Origin: the human T2T-CHM13v2.0 reference genome, Homo sapiens
Assembly: GCF_009914755.1 (NCBI RefSeq)
Contig: NC_060926.1
DNA: 64,000 bases
Strand: one strand, 5' to 3'
Part shown: piece by piece, positions 19,011 through 34,069 of the stretch
Position numbering within the stretch: the stretch's first letter is position 1
Layout: each line of letters begins with the position of its first letter
The notes under the pieces: generated by a model
What the model saw: the letters and a program-made list of their open reading frames with translations, nothing else
The model's database searches: none
Told to the model about the DNA's origin: nothing
Made by a program: the position numbers and the translations under genes

Positions 19011-21003
19011 CAAGTATCTAATTTATGTTAACAGATACAAAAATAGAATAGCCATTTGGGACAAAGGAGGGAAGAGCACCCAAAATATATTAGAACACAC
19101 ATAGGAAGACAAATTTTGTGTCACAACAAGGTCTGATTTCTAATGGGATTAATACAAATGCTCAGAAAGTTCAATGGATTTTAGGAGGACAGGAATCCAT
19201 TAGGCAAAGATGTTGAATGAGATCATTATAAAGACACTCATTCAAAATCACTTAGGGAATGACTTGCATGGAGTTAAAAAGATGATTTGGGTCATTTACC
19301 AAAATCTTTGATGTGTGTGATAAATGAGCGGTTTAGTCAATAACAGTCAGGGTGGAGGGTGGTGTAGGTGGACGTCAAGAGCATGGAAAAAGGTGCCCCT
19401 CCCCATCTCACTCCCTCGCCTCACAATATTTTAATCTATTATTCCAATTCAGTTTTATATGAGAAAAATGAGGGATAGAGGGGCTAAGCAAGTGTAGTTA
19501 GAAACTCTTGGAGACAAGATTCAAACTCATGTAGAAACACCCACCTTGAGCTCAGACACTAGGCTACCTTTCAAAGCAAAGAACCAGAGGCATCATCATG
19601 CTTTTTGGAAGGAAGATTCAGGGGGCTTTGTCCTGAAATATGGTCAGATAAAAGACTTTGGTAGGAGGGATAGGAAGAGAGGAGAAAAAGAAAAGTGATG
19701 TCTAATTTTTCTCTACCTCCTTACATATTTTAAAAAGTATTCAACGTATATTATACTCTTACTCTTAATGTAATTTACTATTGATAAGACCATGTTTTGT
19801 TTCTTATCCCTCAGGAAAAAAAAATCTCTGAGCCCATTGTATATACTAACAGAAATGACTTACTATTTCATGAGAATGTTGCAAAACTGCATGATGGTAA
19901 TCAATCTTTCTCTTCTGAACCAAAGCAGGCAGATTCCTGTCCAGTATACAACTATAAGGACCCTTAGACATTTGTTTATTCCACTAAGAATGTATAGCAA
20001 GTCTTTTCAATAAAAATAGTTGGTATTTAAAATTATGCATTTCAATGAAATTTAGAAATGTAGAAGTGATGGTTGTCCATCATTGTATTGCTTTAAAAAA
20101 CTTTTAAATTTATCATTGTATTTTTTGTAGTAAAGCCAATTTCTTTATTCTGGGAAACCTTCACTGGCATATGTTTTAAACGACTAGTTTAATGCTGTAT
20201 TCTAATTCTTGAGTACAGAGTTTGAATTGATGCCACAGAAAATATTTTTGAAAAAATTATCTAGATCAACATTTTTGTTTAATGAAGCACAGAAAGGTAG
20301 GAGAATAAAAGTGGCTGATCAAGATAACTACCTGTTTGATGACTTTTCCTTTGTGCATTTTTATTCAAGCTTTTTTCTTTCTTTTATGTATTTCTCTTAC
20401 TTATATTTTGCCAAGAACTTTAAGAGAAATGTCACTGCATAATTTTCTCTCCATTTTTCTCCTGTGTAGAAAGAGCACCTACAATTGGCAAAAGAATCAC
20501 CTCTAAATTGAACATAATGTGTTCTTGCTGAGCAGGAAAGAATTAAATAAAAGTTGCATACAGCTGCTTGCAACAATCTAGGCTTGAAAGATTGCCAAAT
20601 GGGTTAGCAGTTTGATCTGCTTGTTCATCTTTCTCAGCTCCCTGTAGATACCACATCCCTTGCCCCAATCCTCTAGTGTAACCAGTGGTCTCTCCCCTTC
20701 CTCCTCTCTAAACTTTGAAATAAAAGTCCTGAATGAGGGAACACCAATAGGAGAGGAAAGACACATGTGAAACATCTTGGTAAATGTTATGAAAAGGGAA
20801 AGCTGAATGTCTGCACATGTTTTCAGTTATTCATAAACATCTTCCTTTTGCTTTCTAGTTTTCAAGTGATGAGAAATTAGAGAAAAAAAGGGAAAATAGT
20901 TCCTTAAGTTCTATTTAATTGTGAAACTGAATTCTATGAAACACTTTCATTAGTAAACAAGGATGAACTTGTGAGTTGTGATGAAATCTGTGAATGATGG
21001 TTG

Positions 21004-21557
21004 TGAGGCAGGAGAACAGGGTCTGAAGGCAGGGAACCTAACGCCGATCTGTGCTGATTTCCTAGAATGGAATCAAAAGGAAAACCCCACCTCTCCACTC
21101 TCGAGTAACAAAAGGATCAAAGGCTACTCCTTTTGCAACACCCCACTCCCCCATTTCTGCATTGTGGAGGAGAAAGTAAAGTACTTCTGATTGGTCTGCT
21201 CCTGAAACCGGTCAGACTGGTCATGTCGGCCTTGTCTTCATTTGCATAGGGGTGTGACTTGGTAACTTCACTTCAGTCTGTTTGGTCACCTTCCAACACC
21301 AGTCTGACTGGTTGGGGGCCACCACTTCATTAATAGGGTGTAAAGCAAGTAACCAATGGGAAACCTCTCCAGGGTATTTAAACATCAGAAAATTCTGTAA
21401 CCAGCACTCTGGAGTCGCTTGCTCAAGGCTACTCCCACTCTGTGTAGAGTACTTTTGTTTTAATAAATCTGTGCTTTTATTTTATTGCTTTGTTCGTGCA
21501 TTTTTCCCAATTCTTTGTTCAAAACACCAAGAACCTGGTCACCCTCCACTGGTAACA
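21004..21557 (+). mobile_element. MER51-family ERV1 solo LTR
   Basis: tgaggcaggagaacagggtctgaaggcagggaacctaa...ccactggtaaca, with TG...CA ends, CCAAT boxes, a TATA-like element and AATAAA. Confidence 0.75.
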
Positions 21558-21792
21558 GAACACTTACATAATTACTCGCACCCATTACAGAGTAAACAAA
21601 AATAGAAGAGAGTAATACTGAATAGAGTCAGTGTAATTGTCATTCAATTTTACACAGTTACTTTAAACACCAAATATACAATCAGGGTTTTATGTTAAAA
21701 AATCAATTATGGAATGCTTCGTAAATCTCTCTTTTACATTAATTAGGTGCTTATTATTTGACTCAATATATAATTTTATTTAGTAAAAATGA

Positions 21793-22167
21793 TGTATTAG
21801 TCCGTTCTCATGCTGCTAATAAAGACCTACCCCAAACTGGGTAATTTATAAAGAAAAGAGATTTAATTGACTGACAGTTCCATGTGGCCGGGGAAGCCTC
21901 AGGAAACTTACAGTCATGGCGGAAGGGGAAGCAAACACATCCATCTTCACATGGTGGTAGGAAGGATAAGAATGAGCAGAAGGAGAAAAGCCCCTTATAA
22001 AACCATCAGATCTTGTAAGAACTCACTCACTATCACCACAGCAGCATGAGGGTAACAGCCCTAAATTACTAAATTACCTCCCACTGGGTCCCTCCTATAA
22101 CACACGGGGATTATGGGAACTACAATTCAAGACGAGATTTGGGTGAGGACACAGCCAAACCATATCA
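21793..22167 (-). mobile_element. THE1 (THE1C-like) MaLR LTR, the 3' LTR of the composite element
   Basis: tgtattagtccgttctcatgctgct...gacacagccaaaccatatca; 375 bp. Confidence 0.92.
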
Positions 22168-23774
22168 TTCTGCCCCTGGCCTCTCTTAAGTCTCATGACC
22201 TCACATTTCAAAATGTAATCATGCCCTCCCAACAGACCCCCAAAAGTCTTAGCTCATTACAGCATTAACCTAAAAGTCCATGTCCAAAGTCTCATCTGAG
22301 ACAAGTACCTTCCACCTATGAGTCTGTAAAATTGAAAGCAAGTTAGTTACTTCCTAGATACAGTGGGGTTCAGACATTGGGTAAATACACTCATTCCAAA
22401 TGGGAGAAATTGGCCAAAATGAAGGGGCTCCAGGTGCCATTCAAGTCCAAAATCCAGCGGGGCAGTCAACCATTAAAACTCTGTAATGATCTCCTTTGGC
22501 TCCATGTCTCACATCCAGGTCACGTTGATGCAAGAGGTGGGCTCTGAAGGCCTTGGGCAGCTCTGCCCCTGTGGCTCTGCAGGGTACAGCCTTCCTCCTG
22601 GCTGCTTTCAAGGCCTGGCACTGAGTATCTGCAGCTTTTCCAGGCACACAGTGAAGCTGTCGATGGATCTACCATTCTGGGGTCCAAAGGATGGTGGCCC
22701 TCTTCTCACAGCTCCTCTAGGCAGTGCCTCAGTAGGGACTCTGTGTGGGGGCTACAACCCCACTTTGCCCTTCCGTACTGCCCTAGCAGAGGTTCTCCAT
22801 GAGAGCTCTTCCACTGCAACAAACTTCTTCCTGGACATGCAGACATTTCCATACATCCTTAGAAATCTAGGCAGAGGTTCTCAAACCTCAATTCTTGACT
22901 TCTGTGCACCTGCAGGCTCAACACCACGTGGAAGCTGCCAAGGCTTGGGGATTGCACCCTCTGAAGCCATGTCCTGAACTGTATGTTGGCTCCTTTTAGC
23001 AATGGCCGGAATGCAGGGCAGCAAGTCCTGAGATTGCACAAAGCAGCAAGGCCCTGGGACCAGCCCATGAAACCATTTTTTCCTCCTAGGCCTTTTGGCT
23101 TGTGATGCGAGGGTTGCCATGAAGACCTCTGACATGCCCTGGAGACATTTTCCCCATTGTCTTGGTGATTAACATTTGGCTCCTTACTTATGCCAATTTT
23201 TGCAGCCAGCTTGAATTTCTCATCAGAAAATAAGTTTTTCTTTTCTATTGCATTATCAGCCTGCAAATTTGCTGAACTTTAATTCTCTGCTTCCTTTTTA
23301 AACATAAGTTCCAATTCCAAACAATATCTTTGTGAATGCATAAAACTGAATGCCTTTAGCAGCACCCTAGTCATATCTTGAATGCTTTGCTGTTTAGAAA
23401 TTTCTTCTGCCAGATACCCTAAATCATATGTCTCAAGTTCAAAGTTCCCCAGGTCTCTAGGGCAGGGGCAAAATGCTGCCAGTCTCTTTGCTAAAGCATA
23501 GCAAGAATCACCTTTATTTCAGTTCCAAATAAATTCCTCATATCCATTTGAGACCACCTCAGCCTGCACTTCATTCTCCATATCACTATCAGCATTTTGG
23601 TCAAAACCACTCAACAAGTCTCTGGGAAGTTGCAAACTTTCCCACATCTTCCTATCTTCTTCTGAGCTCTCCATATTCAAACAGGGAAACAATCTCTGCC
23701 TGTTGTCCATTTCCAAAGTTGCTTCCACATTTCCAGGTATTTTTTAGCAACACCTCACTCCTGCTATCAAAATC
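22168..23774 (-). mobile_element. THE1 internal region (about 1.6 kb)
   Basis: Starts with the reverse-complement PPT ttctgcccctggcc, has a typical THE1-int body, and ends in a PBS-like cacctcactcctgctatcaaaatc. Confidence 0.9.
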
Positions 23775-24337
23775 TGTTATTAGTCAGCGTTCTCTAGAGG
23801 AACAGAACTAAAAGGATATATAGGAAAGAGAGTTTATGAAGGAAAATTGACTCACAGGATCACAAGGTAAGGTCTCAGGATAGGACATCTGCAAATTGAG
23901 AATCAAGGATCCCAGTGTAAATCAGCCTGAGTCCCAAAACCTCAAAAGTAGGGAAGCCAACTGTCCAGCCTTCAGTCTGTGGCCAAAGTGGCCAAAGGCC
24001 CAAGAGCCTCTGGCAAACCACTGGTGTTAAGTCCAAGAGTCCAAAAGCTGAAGAACTTGGAGTCTGATGTCTGAGGGCAGGAAGCATTCAGTGTGGGTGA
24101 AAGATGAAGGCCGGAAGACTCAGCAAGTCTGCTCTTCCATCTGCTCCTCTCTGTTTTATTCTAGCAGCACCAGCAGCTGATTAGATGGTGCCCACCCATA
24201 TTGAGGGTGAGTCTGCCTCTCCCAGTCCACTTACTCAAATGTTAATTTCTTTTAGCAACACCCTCATAGACACAACCAGGAAAAATACTTCGTATCCTTC
24301 AATCCAATCAAGTTGACACTCAATATTAACCATCACA
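23775..24337 (-). mobile_element. MLT2A (MLT2A2-like, HERV-L) LTR in the 5' LTR position
   Basis: tgttattagtcagcgttctctagaggaacagaact...caatccaatcaagttgacactcaatattaaccatcaca; about 560 bp. Confidence 0.88.
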
Positions 24338-26229
24338 GATGAGTGTTTTACTTGGAGAAAATTTAACTCAGTTTTACCAACCTAGCATTTTAACCTCTAC
24401 GCCTAATTCTTCCAGGCTTAGAAATTTTTGCAAATTCTCATATAGCAGGATGACTTAAACTTTACGTGAAGTACATTTTTTAAAATGTGGAAGATCACCA
24501 GATGTCTCTTACTGTGAATCACTTCACATTAATGTTCCTTGCTTTGTATTTTGTGGTTCTAAAACATTTTAAAATTCAAAAGTATTCAAAGCAAAGTTAA
24601 TTCCACCTTATTTTCCTTATTAAAGGAAATATGCAATACAGAATTTGTTTAGAAAAAGGTAACAAAAAAAGCATTCTTAAATTCCAAAAATCTCTAATTC
24701 TTTTTTAAAAACTCACCATTTTAAAAAATGTTAGGAGTTACTACTTCGAAGAAAAGTTAATTATTCAAATTGCTTTGTCTTTCTCCATCTATTATGTTTG
24801 AACGGTGTGAAAACCTTTCTCATATCAGTGACATTCAGTTATAGCATGATATATTTTTTCAATAAAATTCACATATTTTAGTGAAAATGCTTGTTAAAAT
24901 GTACTTAAAAATAAGTTTCAGAGAAACAATGAAACCTGAAGGCTGCCCTCAGATAGACAATTTGAATTCCAGAGACCTACTATTTCAAGATATTTTGATC
25001 ACTTCAGCTCTTCATTGGAAGCCAACAAGTCTGCTCCATACTAGAAATTGCAAGCTGCTTGAGGCTCTCAGAGGCCCCCAAATCAGGCTCTTAATACCTA
25101 CCTCACATAACATGCAAATTAGAAATAGGGTTCTTTAAGTGCCTGTGATATACCAGGCCCAGGAGGTCACAGGCATTTAAAGCACTGTGATTTTTATTAT
25201 TGAAATTAATGACATAGAAGTTTCGCAAAACAACAGAGAACTAAATATTCTCTAAGAGGGGACTCGTGTATTTGGTAGTTGGCTCATTTGTAGCATGCCC
25301 ATATGTTCTATGCCAATTTCAAACTAACACATGGCCTGAAATGTCTGCATCATATTAGGCTTTGCTAATCATTTTACCATCATAGAAATCTTATGCTAGG
25401 CCAGTGCTACTTACACCTCTTCCTAGAATCAATAGGAGAATTCTGAAGATAGTCAGATTCTCTTCTTTAAACAAAAGGTACTCAGGCAGAATCTCTGAGT
25501 GAATTCAGATACATACCCACGATTGGAAACCTTAATCTAGTTACCTGTGGACATGACGAACCTTGGCCTTTCGTGCTAGTGCTAGACCATGCTACACAAC
25601 ATCTCTGCTGGTCACCTTCATGTAATATTTTTTCTTCCAACAAGCTATGGTCATAAAGAAGATTTAAGGTTCATCAGTGGAAACTGAATCTAAACATAGT
25701 TGAAGGTGGAAAATTGCCATTTTAAGAGCTAGAGCAGTAAGCTTGTGGGGTACAGAGGAGTTAATCTTTGAGACAGAAACTCTTGTTTAATCTGACAGGG
25801 ACCACTTTTCTAAACCTTTTAGTCAAACATAAATAAAATCTACTCATTAGTCTTGTGGAAAACTTGAATGCAAAAGTTAGCATGAGTGCAGGTAAGTATA
25901 CAGTTTAATAATTTAAATGAAAAATGTTAGCAGAAAATGATGCTGAAGAGTCAAATGCTTTTTCTTTACAAATTTTGAGCTAAGCTGCCCTACCCCTAAA
26001 GAGGCTAAAGTGATTGTTCTTTCTTGCGAAGTGTGTGTGTATGTGTGTGTGTGTTTTATTCAGCATTTGCTCACAAGAGACTAGGGGCTACGATCAGTTC
26101 ATACCATGCATGAGGTGCTGGCCGAATCTCTTGGTGCTCTTATAGAGAAAAATGATAAGCAACGGAACTGGCCTCAGCCTACCATTACCTTTACAGGGCT
26201 GTTCATATTCACAGGTGGTAGTACCTGGT

Positions 26230-31503: not shown

Positions 31504-32159
31504 TATACTTCTCCTCACATGACAAAAACTAGCCCCTATCTCAATTATGTTTCAAATCTTCCCATCAACAAACCTGAACATCCTCCTATCACAATTCTAT
31601 CCATTATAGTGGGTGGTTGAGGGGGACTTAACCAAACACAACTGCGTAAAATCCTAGCCTACTCCTCAATCACTCACATAGGTTGAATAATAGCAGTACT
31701 AATTTATGACCCAAACATTACCACTCTAAATCTGATTATTTACCTTATCTTAACAACAACTGCATTTCTATCACTCAACCTGAGTATAAGCATCACAACC
31801 CTGTCACTATCTCATGCCTGAAAGAAATTAGCATGGTTGACACCTATAATTCCACTAATTCTACTATCCCTACGAGGTTTACCCCCATTACAGGGTTCCT
31901 GCCTAAATGAATAATCATCCAAGGATTTACAAAAAATTATAGCCTTGTCACCCCAACCATTATAGCTATCATAACCCTACTCAACCTGTACTCTTACATA
32001 CACCTCATTTATTCCATCTTGGTAACACTATTCCCCACATCTAATAATATGAAACTAAAATGACAATTCGAAATCGCAAAACCCACACTACTCCCTCCTC
32101 ACTTGTCATCTCTTCTACCGTCCTCTTACCCACCTCTCCATTAATACTAACTATAACTT
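31504..32159 (+). pseudogene. mt ND2 pseudogene (3' part)
   Basis: cttctcctcacatgacaaaaactagcccct translates to LLLTWQKLAP in the mitochondrial code. It is frameshifted and ends at tRNA-Trp. Confidence 0.93.
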
Positions 32160-32543
32160 AGAAATTTAGTTTAAATAAGACCAAGGGCCTTCAAAGCCCT
32201 TAGTAAGTAAATGACACTTAATTTCTGTAACAGACCTAAGGGCTGCAAGACTCTATTCTGCATCAGTTGAACGCAAATAAACCACTTTAATTAAGCTAAG
32301 CCCTTACTAGACTGGTGGAATTCAAAACCACGAAAATTTAGTTAACAGTTAAACCCCCTAATCAACTGGCTTCAATCTACTTCTCCCACCATTGGGGGAA
32401 AAAGGCAGGAGAAGCCACGGCAGGATTGAAGCTGCTCCTTTGAATTTGCAATTCAACATGAGAAATCACTTCAGGGCTGGTGAACAGTGGCCTTGACCTC
32501 TGTCTTCAGATTTACAGTCTAATGCTTGCTCAGCCATTTTATA
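32160..32543. pseudogene. mt WANCY cluster pseudogenes: Trp(+) 32160-32227, Ala(-) 32237-32305, Asn(-) 32307-32379, OriL 32380-32414, Cys(-) 32413-32478, Tyr(-) 32478-32543
   Basis: Sequence and order match the mitochondrial WANCY region, including the OriL hairpin cttctcccacc...ggcaggagaag. Confidence 0.9.
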
Positions 32544-32562
32544 CCCCCGCCGCCGCCCCCCT

Positions 32563-34069
<1,507 letters not shown>

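What the first reader, a model, noticed from the sequence alone, without database searches (positions are those of the whole stretch)
21788..24342. Chimeric provirus with two different LTRs: HERV-L MLT2A 5' LTR, tRNA-Leu PBS, THE1 internal region and THE1C 3' LTR in one TSD
Seen: on the minus strand an intact MLT2A-type LTR (24337-23775) is followed directly by GATTT-TGATAGCAGGAGTGAGGT, then THE1-int and a THE1C LTR. There is no THE1 5' LTR. The whole unit is flanked by aatga (21788-21792) and gatga (24338-24342), a 4/5 match to a 5-bp TSD. Knowledge (from memory): HERV-L internal sequence begins GATTTTGGTACCAGGAGTG, whereas THE1-int begins GTAAATTGGTACC. The 18 nt after GATTT match the complement of the tRNA-Leu(UAA) 3' end (TGGTACCAGGAGTGGGGT) at 15/18. 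MaLRs lack pol and are presumed to be mobilised in trans by ERVL. Inference: this is the product expected if HERV-L plus-strand strong-stop DNA (LTR, spacer, tRNA-copied PBS) jumped onto a THE1 minus strand in the same particle. It would be a physical record of HERV-L/THE1 co-packaging that annotation tools list as unrelated adjacent repeats.
Basis: partly seen in the sequence, partly recalled or inferred. Interest (0 to 1): 0.85.

Follow-up and report, generated by a model that had tools for sequence, protein, structure and literature searches.

The report
Two-parent retroelement with mismatched LTRs
An old retrovirus-like insertion in an ERBB4 intron has the front end of HERV-L and the body and tail of THE1 inside one target-site duplication, and at least 22 similar insertions elsewhere in the genome suggest the two elements were reverse-transcribed together in one particle.

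Summary
On the minus strand there is a 563-bp HERV-L-type LTR (24337-23775), then GATTT, an 18-nt tRNA-Leu(UAA) primer-binding site (15/18), about 1.58 kb of THE1-type internal sequence and a 375-bp THE1-type LTR (22167-21793). The flanks are TCATC and TCATT. Homology to real HERV-L copies stops inside the PBS, and everything after it is THE1.

It is not a one-off. I read the same junction at 23 independent loci, and 7 more are indicated by alignment span. All 9 elements read end to end have a THE1-type 3' LTR. Eight of those 9 have a 5-bp duplication matching at 4/5 or better (shuffled pairs: 1 of 72). The copies are no closer to each other than to ordinary THE1 or MLT2A copies, so they arose repeatedly.

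Reciprocal junctions (THE1 LTR-PBS-HERV-L leader) also exist: 2 read, one with a 4/5 duplication, and 3 more by span.

Spacer and PBS variants co-vary as expected for a PBS heteroduplex. GATTT goes with the tRNA-perfect-length PBS, and a hybrid GATAT goes with THE1's own variant PBS.

Best reading (about 0.75): intermolecular plus-strand strong-stop transfer between co-packaged HERV-L and THE1 cDNAs.

The parts
24338..24342 (-). 5' copy of the target-site duplication (TCATC on the minus strand)
   Evidence: It matches the 3' copy at 4 of 5 positions.
23775..24337 (-). 5' LTR of HERV-L type (MLT2A-like, a recalled label), 563 bp, TG...CA ends
   Evidence: Full-length alignment to more than 20 LTR copies, solo or followed by the HERV-L leader. 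Mean gap-free identity is 84.3%, typical for that family.
23770..23774 (-). Spacer GATTT between U5 and the PBS (HERV-L type)
   Evidence: 12 of 12 true HERV-L junctions read GATTT. 0 of 28 normal THE1 junctions do; they read GTAAAT or close variants.
23752..23769 (-). Primer-binding site, 18 nt, 15/18 complementary to the tRNA-Leu(UAA) 3' end. This is the switch zone between the two parents.
   Evidence: tRNA-Leu(TAA) gene found in the same genome (ARAGORN, sequence). HERV-L homology ends here and THE1 homology begins here.
22168..23751 (-). THE1-type internal region, about 1.58 kb, uninterrupted
   Evidence: 80-84% identity over q3-1584 to elements with two THE1 LTRs. It sits among normal THE1 copies in a star-like tree.
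22168..22187 (-). Purine-rich tract directly 5' of the 3' LTR (polypurine-tract position)
   Evidence: Read directly (aagagaggccaggggcagaa). It lies in the block that aligns without a break to normal THE1 across the internal/LTR boundary (L037). No statistics were run on it.
21793..22167 (-). 3' LTR of THE1 type, 375 bp, TG...CA ends
   Evidence: Aligns full length to both LTRs of normal THE1 elements. Best gap-free identities are 85.6-87.2% (L064, L066, L051, L058). The subfamily THE1C was not testable.
21788..21792 (-). 3' copy of the target-site duplication (TCATT on the minus strand)

Best explanation
The element was integrated once, as a finished double-stranded cDNA whose two ends came from two different RNAs reverse-transcribed in the same HERV-L particle.

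Inferred sequence of events:
1. A HERV-L RNA and a THE1 RNA were packaged together.
2. Minus-strand DNA was started on both.
3. The HERV-L minus strand gave rise to plus-strand strong-stop DNA, made of the MLT2A-type U3-R-U5, the spacer GATTT and an 18-nt copy of the tRNA-Leu primer.
4. This DNA annealed through the PBS to the 3' end of the THE1 minus strand instead of to its own.
5. Extension of both strands gave HERV-L LTR - PBS - THE1 internal - THE1 LTR.
6. The HERV-L integrase inserted this with a 5-bp duplication.

Shown here: the architecture, single integration, a junction within the PBS, recurrence at many independent loci, the existence of the reciprocal junction, and a spacer/PBS pattern that fits a heteroduplex at the PBS.

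Inferred, not shown: co-packaging itself and the enzymology.

The element has no evident present function. It is a roughly 11%-diverged fossil in an ERBB4 intron.
For: 1. Anatomy. Searches give the parts and show that HERV-L homology stops at about el 787 (inside the PBS), while THE1 homology covers everything downstream, including the boundary between the internal region and the 3' LTR.

2. Single integration. Of 9 hetero-LTR elements read at both ends, 4 have 5/5 flank matches, 4 (including the window's) have 4/5, and 1 has 2/5. Only 1 of 72 cross-pairs reaches 4/5.

3. Recurrence. 23 independent loci show an MLT2A-type LTR end followed by a THE1-type leader. Seven more places align across the junction. 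All 9 elements read in full have a THE1-type 3' LTR.

4. Independent origins.
- The closest relatives of the internal regions of the window's element, L032 and L034 are normal THE1 copies, not other chimeras. The top-40 lists for L032 and L034 share no locus.
- On the tree the chimera label needs 5 changes for 5 rows (shuffled mean 4.8).
- The 5' LTRs come in two length classes and their nearest LTRs are non-chimeric.
- Pairwise identity among 7 chimeras is 72-81%, which is ordinary.

5. Reciprocal product. L122 reads THE1 LTR - GTGAAT - PBS - 540 nt of HERV-L leader - MLT2A-type LTR, with flanks GATGT/AATGT. L123 has the same 5' junction. Three more places align across it.

6. PBS heteroduplex signature, using only loci found by unbiased DNA searches.
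- Chimeras with GATTT-like spacers have a PBS of tRNA-perfect length in 10 of 11.
- Chimeras with A at spacer position -2 (GATAT x7, GAAAT, GTAAAT) have THE1's insertion-type PBS in 7 of 9. Fisher p = 0.0045.
- Normal THE1 has the insertion type in 21 of 28. GATTT chimeras against normal THE1 give p = 0.0003.
- GATAT equals the HERV-L GAT plus the two PBS-proximal THE1 bases, AT.
- GATAT occurs with both LTR length classes and with two different THE1 internal subgroups.
- The split is 11 to 9, close to even.

7. Same age. LTR and internal divergences are typical of both families. A THE1 solo LTR with duplication AGAGG lies inside a HERV-L leader (L009).

8. The helper is a dUTPase-bearing ERV. 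Two of the 39 other elements with the HERV-L leader have a Pfam dUTPase hit on the same strand, 4.3 and 8.2 kb downstream. The chance of this is about 4e-5.
Against: - One of the 9 elements (L126) has only a 2/5 flank match.
- Reciprocal junctions are fewer (2 read plus 3 by span, against 23 plus 7). The one clean reciprocal is internally deleted, and the other (L123) is complex: an LTR fragment followed again by GATTT and a PBS-like stretch.
- None of 39 sampled HERV-L 5' junctions was reciprocal.
- The tree has no well-supported branches (0 of 29 starred), so a single origin is made unlikely rather than formally rejected.
- In studied retroviruses the second strand transfer is generally intramolecular (abstract of PMC5651808). 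The model therefore needs an event that is rare in those systems.
- The spacer/PBS reading rests on 20 loci, and the spacer and PBS classes were partly assigned by eye. A script check agreed where its anchors worked.
- The family names are recalled, not tested.
- No orthologous loci were examined.
Confidence: 0.75

Rival explanations
1. The two cDNAs were made separately, possibly in different particles in the same cell. They were then joined as DNA before integration by host recombination or annealing at the shared PBS, rather than by reverse-transcriptase strand transfer.
For: It would give the same architecture, the same single duplication and reciprocal products. Nothing in the sequence names the enzyme that made the join.
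Against: The shared homology is only about 15-18 nt plus about 11 nt at the LTR end. That is short for cellular homologous recombination but is exactly the substrate of the second strand transfer. The hybrid spacer GATAT and the near-even split of the two PBS types (11 to 9) fit an unrepaired heteroduplex formed by annealing strong-stop DNA to a minus-strand end. Reverse transcription normally finishes inside the capsid (established knowledge).
Confidence: 0.1
2. A single ancestral chimera became a self-propagating family that keeps one HERV-L LTR and one THE1 LTR. The window's copy is simply one member.
For: There are many copies with identical architecture. Seven chimeras share the unusual spacer GATAT. 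The tree cannot formally exclude one origin (the least number of changes forced by starred branches is 1).
Against: Ordinary reverse transcription makes both LTRs from the same U3-R-U5, so a hetero-LTR RNA would give hybrid but identical LTRs. No such copies were seen among the 9 elements read. The chimeras' nearest relatives are normal THE1 and normal MLT2A-type copies. L032 and L034 both have GATAT, yet their internal regions have non-overlapping nearest-relative lists and their LTRs fall in different length classes. Pairwise identity among chimeras is no higher than to other copies.
Confidence: 0.07
3. There were independent insertions of a HERV-L (or solo MLT2A LTR) and a THE1. A later deletion, unequal recombination between their similar PBS regions, or gene conversion of the 5' LTR then produced the present arrangement.
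For: This is the default reading of two adjacent repeats. One of the 9 elements (L126) lacks a good duplication. Deletions do occur in these elements (L019, L122).
Against: The outer ends of two unrelated insertions would not share a 5-bp duplication, yet 8 of 9 do (1 of 72 in the control). The join is at the same 18-nt site in 23 loci. The deletion variant L019 has a perfect duplication, CTTCC.
Confidence: 0.03

Closest known systems
Recombinant proviruses from heterozygous retroviral particles, and intermolecular second (plus-strand) strong-stop transfer
   Same: Two co-packaged RNAs, strand transfer at R and at the PBS, and a chimeric DNA integrated once. The abstract of PMC5651808 argues that the second transfer in HIV-1 can be intermolecular when the two RNAs are very divergent.
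   Different: In those cases the two parents are variants of one virus and the LTRs end up alike or mosaic. Here the parents are an autonomous ERV and its non-coding dependant, the two LTRs are unrelated in sequence, and the record is a germline fossil present at dozens of loci.
Complex or chimeric plant LTR retrotransposons made by template switching (Sabot and Schulman 2007, PMC1950507, abstract read). LTR swapping between autonomous and non-autonomous partners in soybean (Du 2010) is known to me only from its title in a reference list; the paper is not held.
   Same: Daughter elements fused from two parent elements during reverse transcription and then inserted as one unit. This has been used as evidence for cross-packaging.
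   Different: The plant cases are large fusions sharing an LTR, or families that go on to propagate. Here there is a clean exchange of the whole 5' LTR at the PBS, apparently with no propagation of the product.
Mosaic HERVs such as Harlequin, and the 'mosaic forms are common' survey (PMC4724089, passages read; PMC5753468, passages read)
   Same: Human ERV copies built from pieces of different families.
   Different: In the passages I read, MaLR pieces were reported on class I or class II backbones, mostly at the 3' end, often antisense, and judged possibly artificial. Neither the abstract nor those passages (12 of 21 matching places were shown) describe an MLT2-LTR/THE1 unit with a duplication. 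The supplements were not opened.
Ordinary THE1 (MaLR) and ordinary HERV-L elements
   Same: The window's element has THE1's internal region, polypurine side and 3' LTR. It has HERV-L's 5' LTR and spacer. It has the tRNA-Leu PBS and 5-bp duplication common to both.
   Different: It fails the two-identical-LTR rule of either family. It lacks the HERV-L leader and coding region, and it lacks THE1's GTAAAT spacer.

Membership tests
LTR retroelement inserted as one unit | Outer termini TG...CA and a 5-bp target-site duplication | tested here: met
   TGTGATGG...CTAATACA with flanks TCATC/TCATT, a 4/5 match. Across the class 8 of 9 reach 4/5 or better, against 1 of 72 control pairs.
LTR retroelement inserted as one unit | tRNA-complementary PBS next to the 5' LTR and a purine tract next to the 3' LTR | tested here: met
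   The PBS matches 15/18 to the tRNA-Leu(TAA) 3' end. The purine-rich 20-mer at 22168-22187 was read directly and not tested statistically.
LTR retroelement inserted as one unit | Two LTRs that were identical at insertion | tested here: not met
   No direct repeat longer than 23 nt in 21000-25200. The two LTRs match different families.
HERV-L (ERVL) | MLT2A-type LTR at both ends | tested here: not met
   The 5' LTR aligns full length to LTRs that precede the HERV-L leader. The 3' LTR is THE1-type. The name MLT2A is recalled.
HERV-L (ERVL) | GATTT spacer and tRNA-Leu PBS | tested here: met
   12 of 12 HERV-L junctions have GATTT, and the window's element has it too.
HERV-L (ERVL) | HERV-L leader followed by gag-pol with dUTPase | tested here: not met
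   Homology to HERV-L copies ends at the PBS. For reference HERV-L copies, dUTPase hits lie downstream of 2 of 39 junctions. Pfam found nothing in gag-region ORF pieces of L010.
THE1 (MaLR) | THE1-type internal sequence | tested here: met
   80-84% identity over about 1.58 kb to elements with two THE1 LTRs. End branch 0.11, equal to the median.
THE1 (MaLR) | THE1 LTR at both ends and the GTAAAT spacer | tested here: not met
   Only the 3' LTR is THE1-type. The spacer is GATTT, and 0 of 28 normal THE1 rows have that.
THE1 (MaLR) | Subfamily THE1C for the 3' LTR | not testable with these tools
   No Dfam or Repbase library is available. The nearest LTRs are L064, L066_5, L051 and L058_3 at 85.6-87.2%.
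Strand-transfer recombinant of two co-packaged RNAs | Crossover at an obligatory strand-transfer site (the PBS) | tested here: met
   The switch zone is el 769-794, which is window 23774-23749. The same site is used in 23 loci.
Strand-transfer recombinant of two co-packaged RNAs | Parents active at the same time | tested here: met
   Similar family-wide pairwise identities. A THE1 solo LTR is inserted in a HERV-L leader. Dating is rough and no orthologs were examined.
Strand-transfer recombinant of two co-packaged RNAs | The reciprocal product exists | tested here: met
   L122 with a 4/5 duplication, the L123 junction, and 3 more by span. They are fewer than the forward class and none was read as a full-length element.
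Strand-transfer recombinant of two co-packaged RNAs | Both RNAs physically in one particle | not testable with these tools
   Inferred from the products only.

The most novel reading that the evidence does not exclude
Hetero-LTR HERV-L/THE1 elements are a genome-wide fossil series of intermolecular plus-strand strong-stop transfers in mixed particles. If so, they give three things. First, direct physical evidence that HERV-L was the machine that copied THE1. Second, a countable rate of intermolecular second jumps in an extinct retrovirus, at least about 23-30 forward and 5 reciprocal products against roughly 9,000 internal-sequence-bearing THE1/MST loci (first-look candidate counts). Third, a single-nucleotide read-out of the reaction intermediates. 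The hybrid spacer GATAT would mean the THE1 minus strand ran 2 nt past the PBS, marking where RNase H left the template. The 11 to 9 split of PBS types would mean the PBS heteroduplex was resolved by replication rather than by repair.
Probability: 0.6. Interest if true: 0.8.

Novelty: new variant of a known kind. Interest (0 to 1): 0.68.

Why it matters
MaLRs such as THE1 make up about 4% of the human genome and encode no polymerase (PMC10735291, introduction read). That ERV-L copied them has been an assumption based on sequence likeness.

Elements whose two ends come from HERV-L and THE1, but which were integrated once, are the kind of product that only forms if both were reverse-transcribed together. 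They turn the assumption into something that can be counted and dated in any anthropoid genome.

They also preserve details of an extinct retrovirus's reverse transcription: how often the second jump went to the other template, how far the minus strand ran, and how the PBS mismatch was resolved.

For annotation, these units should be joined as one insertion event. They cannot collapse to solo LTRs, so they are over-represented among surviving full-length copies.

The most recent survey of primate MaLR evolution that I could read does not mention MLT2, HERV-L, chimeras or hybrids (0 occurrences). It states that recombination and mosaic forms still await evidence.

Tried and rejected
- Post-integration origin was rejected by the flank test.
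- A special kinship between L126 and L032 was suspected from 90% identity over the junction. It was rejected because the whole elements are 78.9% identical, which is ordinary.
- L035 and L036 both stop matching at el 1142, which looked like a second recombination point. It is a shared L1/Alu insertion hot spot at GAAGAAA.
- I tried comparing 5' and 3' LTRs within normal THE1 elements, to see whether hetero-subfamily LTR pairs are common. There is too little signal: intra-element identity is 81-88%, about the same as between elements. A few elements (L066, L055, L058) have partner ranks of 20-39 of 50. This was left open.
- Pfam on gag-region ORF pieces of a HERV-L copy gave 0 families.
- The reciprocal pattern search found only 3 places and missed the 3 later found by DNA search, so pattern counts are not a census.
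- The GATAT and GATTT patterns mostly hit normal MaLRs. In one search, 13 of 19 hits were THE1/MST-type. In one search, 7 hits were MLT1-like, 5 were other MaLR-like and 5 were older MLT2-like. One hit (C7:88455828) was not fetched.
- Loci found by these patterns (L089, L106) were kept out of the spacer/PBS statistics, because the patterns impose the association.
- L076 (spacer GACGT) was left out of the main Fisher table as unclassifiable. Including it gives p = 0.0019.
- L036, L038, L107, L109 and L119 (older MLT2-like LTRs with a MaLR-like leader) were not counted as chimeras.
- Literature: 7 searches found no description of MLT2A/THE1 hetero-LTR units.
- Smit 1993, Cordonnier 1995, Benit 1999 and Du 2010 are not held. 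Smit 1996 and 1999 are subscription reviews and I did not try to fetch them. Prior mention in any of these cannot be excluded.


Full report
WHAT IS THERE

One search was read on the minus strand against the ruler. It shows:
- flank TCATC (24342-24338);
- a 563-bp LTR beginning TGTGATGG (24337) and ending ...CTAATAACA (23775);
- GATTT (23774-23770);
- TGATAGCAGGAGTGAGGT (23769-23752);
- about 1.58 kb of internal sequence (to 22168), ending in a purine-rich tract;
- a 375-bp LTR from TGATATGG (22167) to ...CTAATACA (21793);
- flank TCATT (21792-21788).

The two LTRs are unrelated: the longest direct repeat in 21000-25200 is 23 nt.

THE PARTS AND WHERE THE PARENTS SWITCH

The window's own assembly can be searched. 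A 161-nt probe across the 5' LTR/internal junction (40 of 740 candidates scored) and BLAST of the whole element against the fetched loci gave three kinds of relative.

1. LTR copies that align over the whole 5' LTR and stop at its end, or at about el 787. The copies that stop at el 787 continue with a different internal sequence.
2. Elements with THE1-type LTRs at both ends. Their internal region aligns with the window's over q3-1584 at 80-84%.
3. Other loci with the window's own architecture.

The junction alignments show the following.
- True HERV-L copies read LTR...ACA | GATTT | TGGTACCAGGAGTGG | TTCTAGAGGAACAG... This holds in 12 of 12 (6, 6).
- Normal THE1 reads LTR...ACA | GTAAAT (or a one-base variant) | PBS | GTGCTGCTRTAAAGATACC... 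None of 28 rows has GATTT or GATAT.

So the window's element is HERV-L up to the spacer and THE1 from just after the PBS. The switch lies within window 23774-23749.

Evidence that the reference family really is a dUTPase-bearing ERV: 2 of the 39 other leader-bearing loci have a Pfam dUTPase hit on the same strand, 4.3 and 8.2 kb downstream. The chance of this is about 4e-5. The names MLT2A, HERV-L and THE1C are recalled labels. PMC5753468 (passage read) lists HERVL with MLT2A1/2, and THE1_I with THE1A-D.

THE PBS

A tRNA-Leu(TAA) gene was located in the same genome with the reverse complement of the PBS core. ARAGORN confirmed it. Its 3' end...ACCCCACTCCTGGTA plus CCA, gives the canonical PBS TGGTACCAGGAGTGGGGT.

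IT IS A CLASS, NOT A SINGLETON

Junction probes from the window and from other chimeras, plus two pattern searches, gave 23 independent loci where I read an MLT2A-type LTR end followed by a THE1-type leader:
- the window;
- L031-L034;
- the L035 group (four segmental duplicates with 96-98% identical LTRs, counted once);
- L069-L082 (14 of 14 candidates confirmed);
- L019;
- L089;
- L106.

Nine elements were read at both ends, and all nine have a THE1-type 3' LTR. Their flanks match as follows:
- 5/5 in four: L031 GTTAC, L032 AGTTC, L034 AACCT, L019 CTTCC;
- 4/5 in four: the window, L033, L127, L125;
- 2/5 in one: L126.

Among 72 pairs made from the 5' flank of one element and the 3' flank of another, only 1 reaches 4/5. 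Each unit was therefore integrated once. This excludes independent insertion followed by deletion, unequal recombination, and LTR conversion.

ONE ORIGIN OR MANY

- The internal regions of the window's element, L032 and L034 each have normal THE1 copies as their best matches (82-85%), not other chimeras. The top-40 lists for L032 and L034 share no locus. Several of the hits are elements shown to have two THE1 LTRs.
- A maximum-likelihood tree of 32 internal regions is star-like (0 of 29 branches starred). The chimera label needs 5 changes for 5 rows (shuffled mean 4.8). The window's end branch (0.11) equals the median.
- The 5' LTRs come in two length classes (about 440 and about 550 bp). Their nearest relatives are non-chimeric LTRs, and the window's mean identity (84.3%) is typical.
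- The window's 3' LTR is closest to normal THE1 LTRs (85.6-87.2%), not to other chimeras' 3' LTRs.
- Pairwise identity among seven chimeras is 72-81%.

Standard reverse transcription also cannot reproduce a hetero-LTR unit. I therefore read the class as repeated independent products. A single origin is not formally rejected, because the tree has no support either way.

THE RECIPROCAL PRODUCT

- A pattern for a THE1-type spacer plus the HERV-L leader found 3 places. Two have THE1-type LTRs upstream.
- L122 reads THE1 LTR | GTGAAT | PBS | 540 nt of HERV-L leader | deletion | MLT2A-type LTR (from about LTR position 18). Its flanks are GATGT/AATGT, a 4/5 match.
- L123 has the same 5' junction but a complex 3' side.
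- A DNA probe across the L122 junction found 3 more places aligning over 1-160 or 8-159.
- None of the 39 best HERV-L 5' junctions was reciprocal.

Reciprocals therefore exist but are rarer than the forward class. A possible reason, by inference only, is this. The forward product needs just the first few hundred bases of HERV-L minus strand, whereas the reciprocal needs the whole roughly 6-kb minus strand.

A FOOTPRINT OF THE INTERMEDIATE

This uses only loci found by DNA searches (n = 21, with L076 left out because its spacer could not be classified).

| Group | Canonical-length PBS | Insertion-type PBS |
|---|---|---|
| Chimeras with GATTT-like spacer (n = 11) | 10 | 1 |
| Chimeras with A at spacer position -2: GATAT x7, GAAAT, GTAAAT (n = 9) | 2 | 7 |
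| Normal THE1 (n = 28) | 7 | 21 |

- The first two groups differ with Fisher p = 0.0045.
- GATTT chimeras against normal THE1 give p = 0.0003.
- The A-type chimeras do not differ from normal THE1 (p = 1).

GATAT is the HERV-L GAT followed by the two PBS-proximal THE1 bases, AT.

This is what a plus-strand transfer predicts. The plus strand carries the HERV-L spacer and a tRNA-copied PBS. The minus strand carries THE1's own PBS and, if it ran 2 nt past it, AT. Replication then fixes one strand or the other. The split seen is 11 to 9.

GATAT occurs with both LTR classes and with two THE1 internal subgroups (L032 against L034), so it is not a lineage marker. The window's copy is of the plus-strand type. 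The classes were partly assigned by eye, and the script check failed to anchor in 5 rows, which I classed by eye.

MECHANISM AND RIVALS

The rivals are:
- DNA-level joining of two unintegrated cDNAs at the PBS (0.10);
- a self-propagating chimeric family (0.07);
- post-integration rearrangement (0.03).

Against the main reading:
- one element lacks a duplication;
- reciprocals are scarce and imperfect;
- trees are unsupported;
- in studied retroviruses the second jump is generally intramolecular (abstract of PMC5651808).

WHAT IS KNOWN

Seven full-text searches found no description of MLT2A/THE1 hetero-LTR units.

- The review PMC6894440 (passages read) describes reverse-transcription recombination as yielding two identical LTRs. 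It cites inter-family recombinants in yeast and plants.
- PMC1950507 (abstract read) describes fused plant elements made by template switching.
- PMC4724089 (passages read) reports MaLR pieces in mosaic HERVs, mainly as suspected artefacts. Its supplements were not opened.
- PMC10735291 (introduction and discussion read, plus term counts) never mentions MLT2, HERV-L, chimeras or hybrids. It says recombination and mosaic forms await evidence.
- The classical papers (Smit 1993, Cordonnier 1995, Benit 1999) and Du 2010 are not held. An earlier mention cannot be excluded.

VERDICT

I extended it from one locus to a recurrent class with reciprocal products and a heteroduplex footprint. I rate it a new variant of a known kind (strand-transfer recombinants of co-packaged retroelement RNAs), with interest 0.68.

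Limits:
- no repeat library, so family names are recalled;
- no other primate genomes;

Noticed in passing
L009 (G000:C12:82.17 Mb), locus positions 1818-2166: A THE1-type solo LTR sits inside the leader of a HERV-L copy, with its own duplication AGAGG. The HERV-L leader continues after it. So THE1 was still moving after that HERV-L copy had inserted.
   Followed up: yes
L123 (G000:C2:179.556 Mb), locus positions 109-1700: A THE1 LTR, PBS and about 600 nt of HERV-L leader are followed by the last 315 nt or so of an MLT2A-type LTR. After that come GATTT and a PBS-like stretch again, and then unrelated sequence. No matching flanks were seen. This may be an aberrant reverse-transcription product, and it is unexplained.
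   Followed up: partly
L098 (G000:C5:136.2577 Mb): An LTR end of THE1/MST type is followed by the HERV-L-type spacer GATTT and then a THE1-type insertion PBS. This is the opposite combination from the chimeras. It is a single case and only 83 nt were read.
   Followed up: no
L108, L112, L113, L115, L117, L118, L120 and L107, L109, L119, L036, L038: LTR ends that look MLT1-like and older MLT2-like (recalled labels) are followed by GATTT, a canonical-length tRNA-Leu PBS and a THE1-like leader. So GATTT and this leader look ancestral for the ERVL/MaLR group. On this view THE1's GTAAAT and the HERV-L leader are the derived states.
   Followed up: partly
True HERV-L junctions: L010, L015, L016, L027, L083-L088: Genomic HERV-L copies match the tRNA-Leu 3' end for only 15 nt (TGGTACCAGGAGTGG, then TTC). 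The GATTT-type chimeras carry the full 18-mer ending GGT. This fits a PBS copied from the tRNA, or from THE1, rather than from HERV-L RNA.
   Followed up: partly
L035, L003, L005, L007 (C2:92.13, C4:106.24, C10:38.73, C22:17.13 Mb); possibly also C2:89.49 Mb: One chimeric junction is present in four copies whose LTRs are 96-98% identical. These are later segmental duplications and were counted as one event.
   Followed up: partly
L066, L055, L058 (normal THE1 elements): The 5' and 3' LTRs of the same element are each much closer to LTRs of other elements than to each other (partner rank 20-39 of 50). These could be hetero-subfamily THE1 elements made by the same kind of jump. The L066 locus is also structurally complex.
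   Followed up: no
window 20854-21390 and 31505-34062: According to the hub's annotation, a RefSeq enhancer lies about 400 bp beyond the element's 3' end, and two mitochondrial pseudogenes (MTND2P23, MTCO1P46) lie 7-10 kb away. The element has the same orientation as ERBB4, in an intron. None of this was examined.
   Followed up: no
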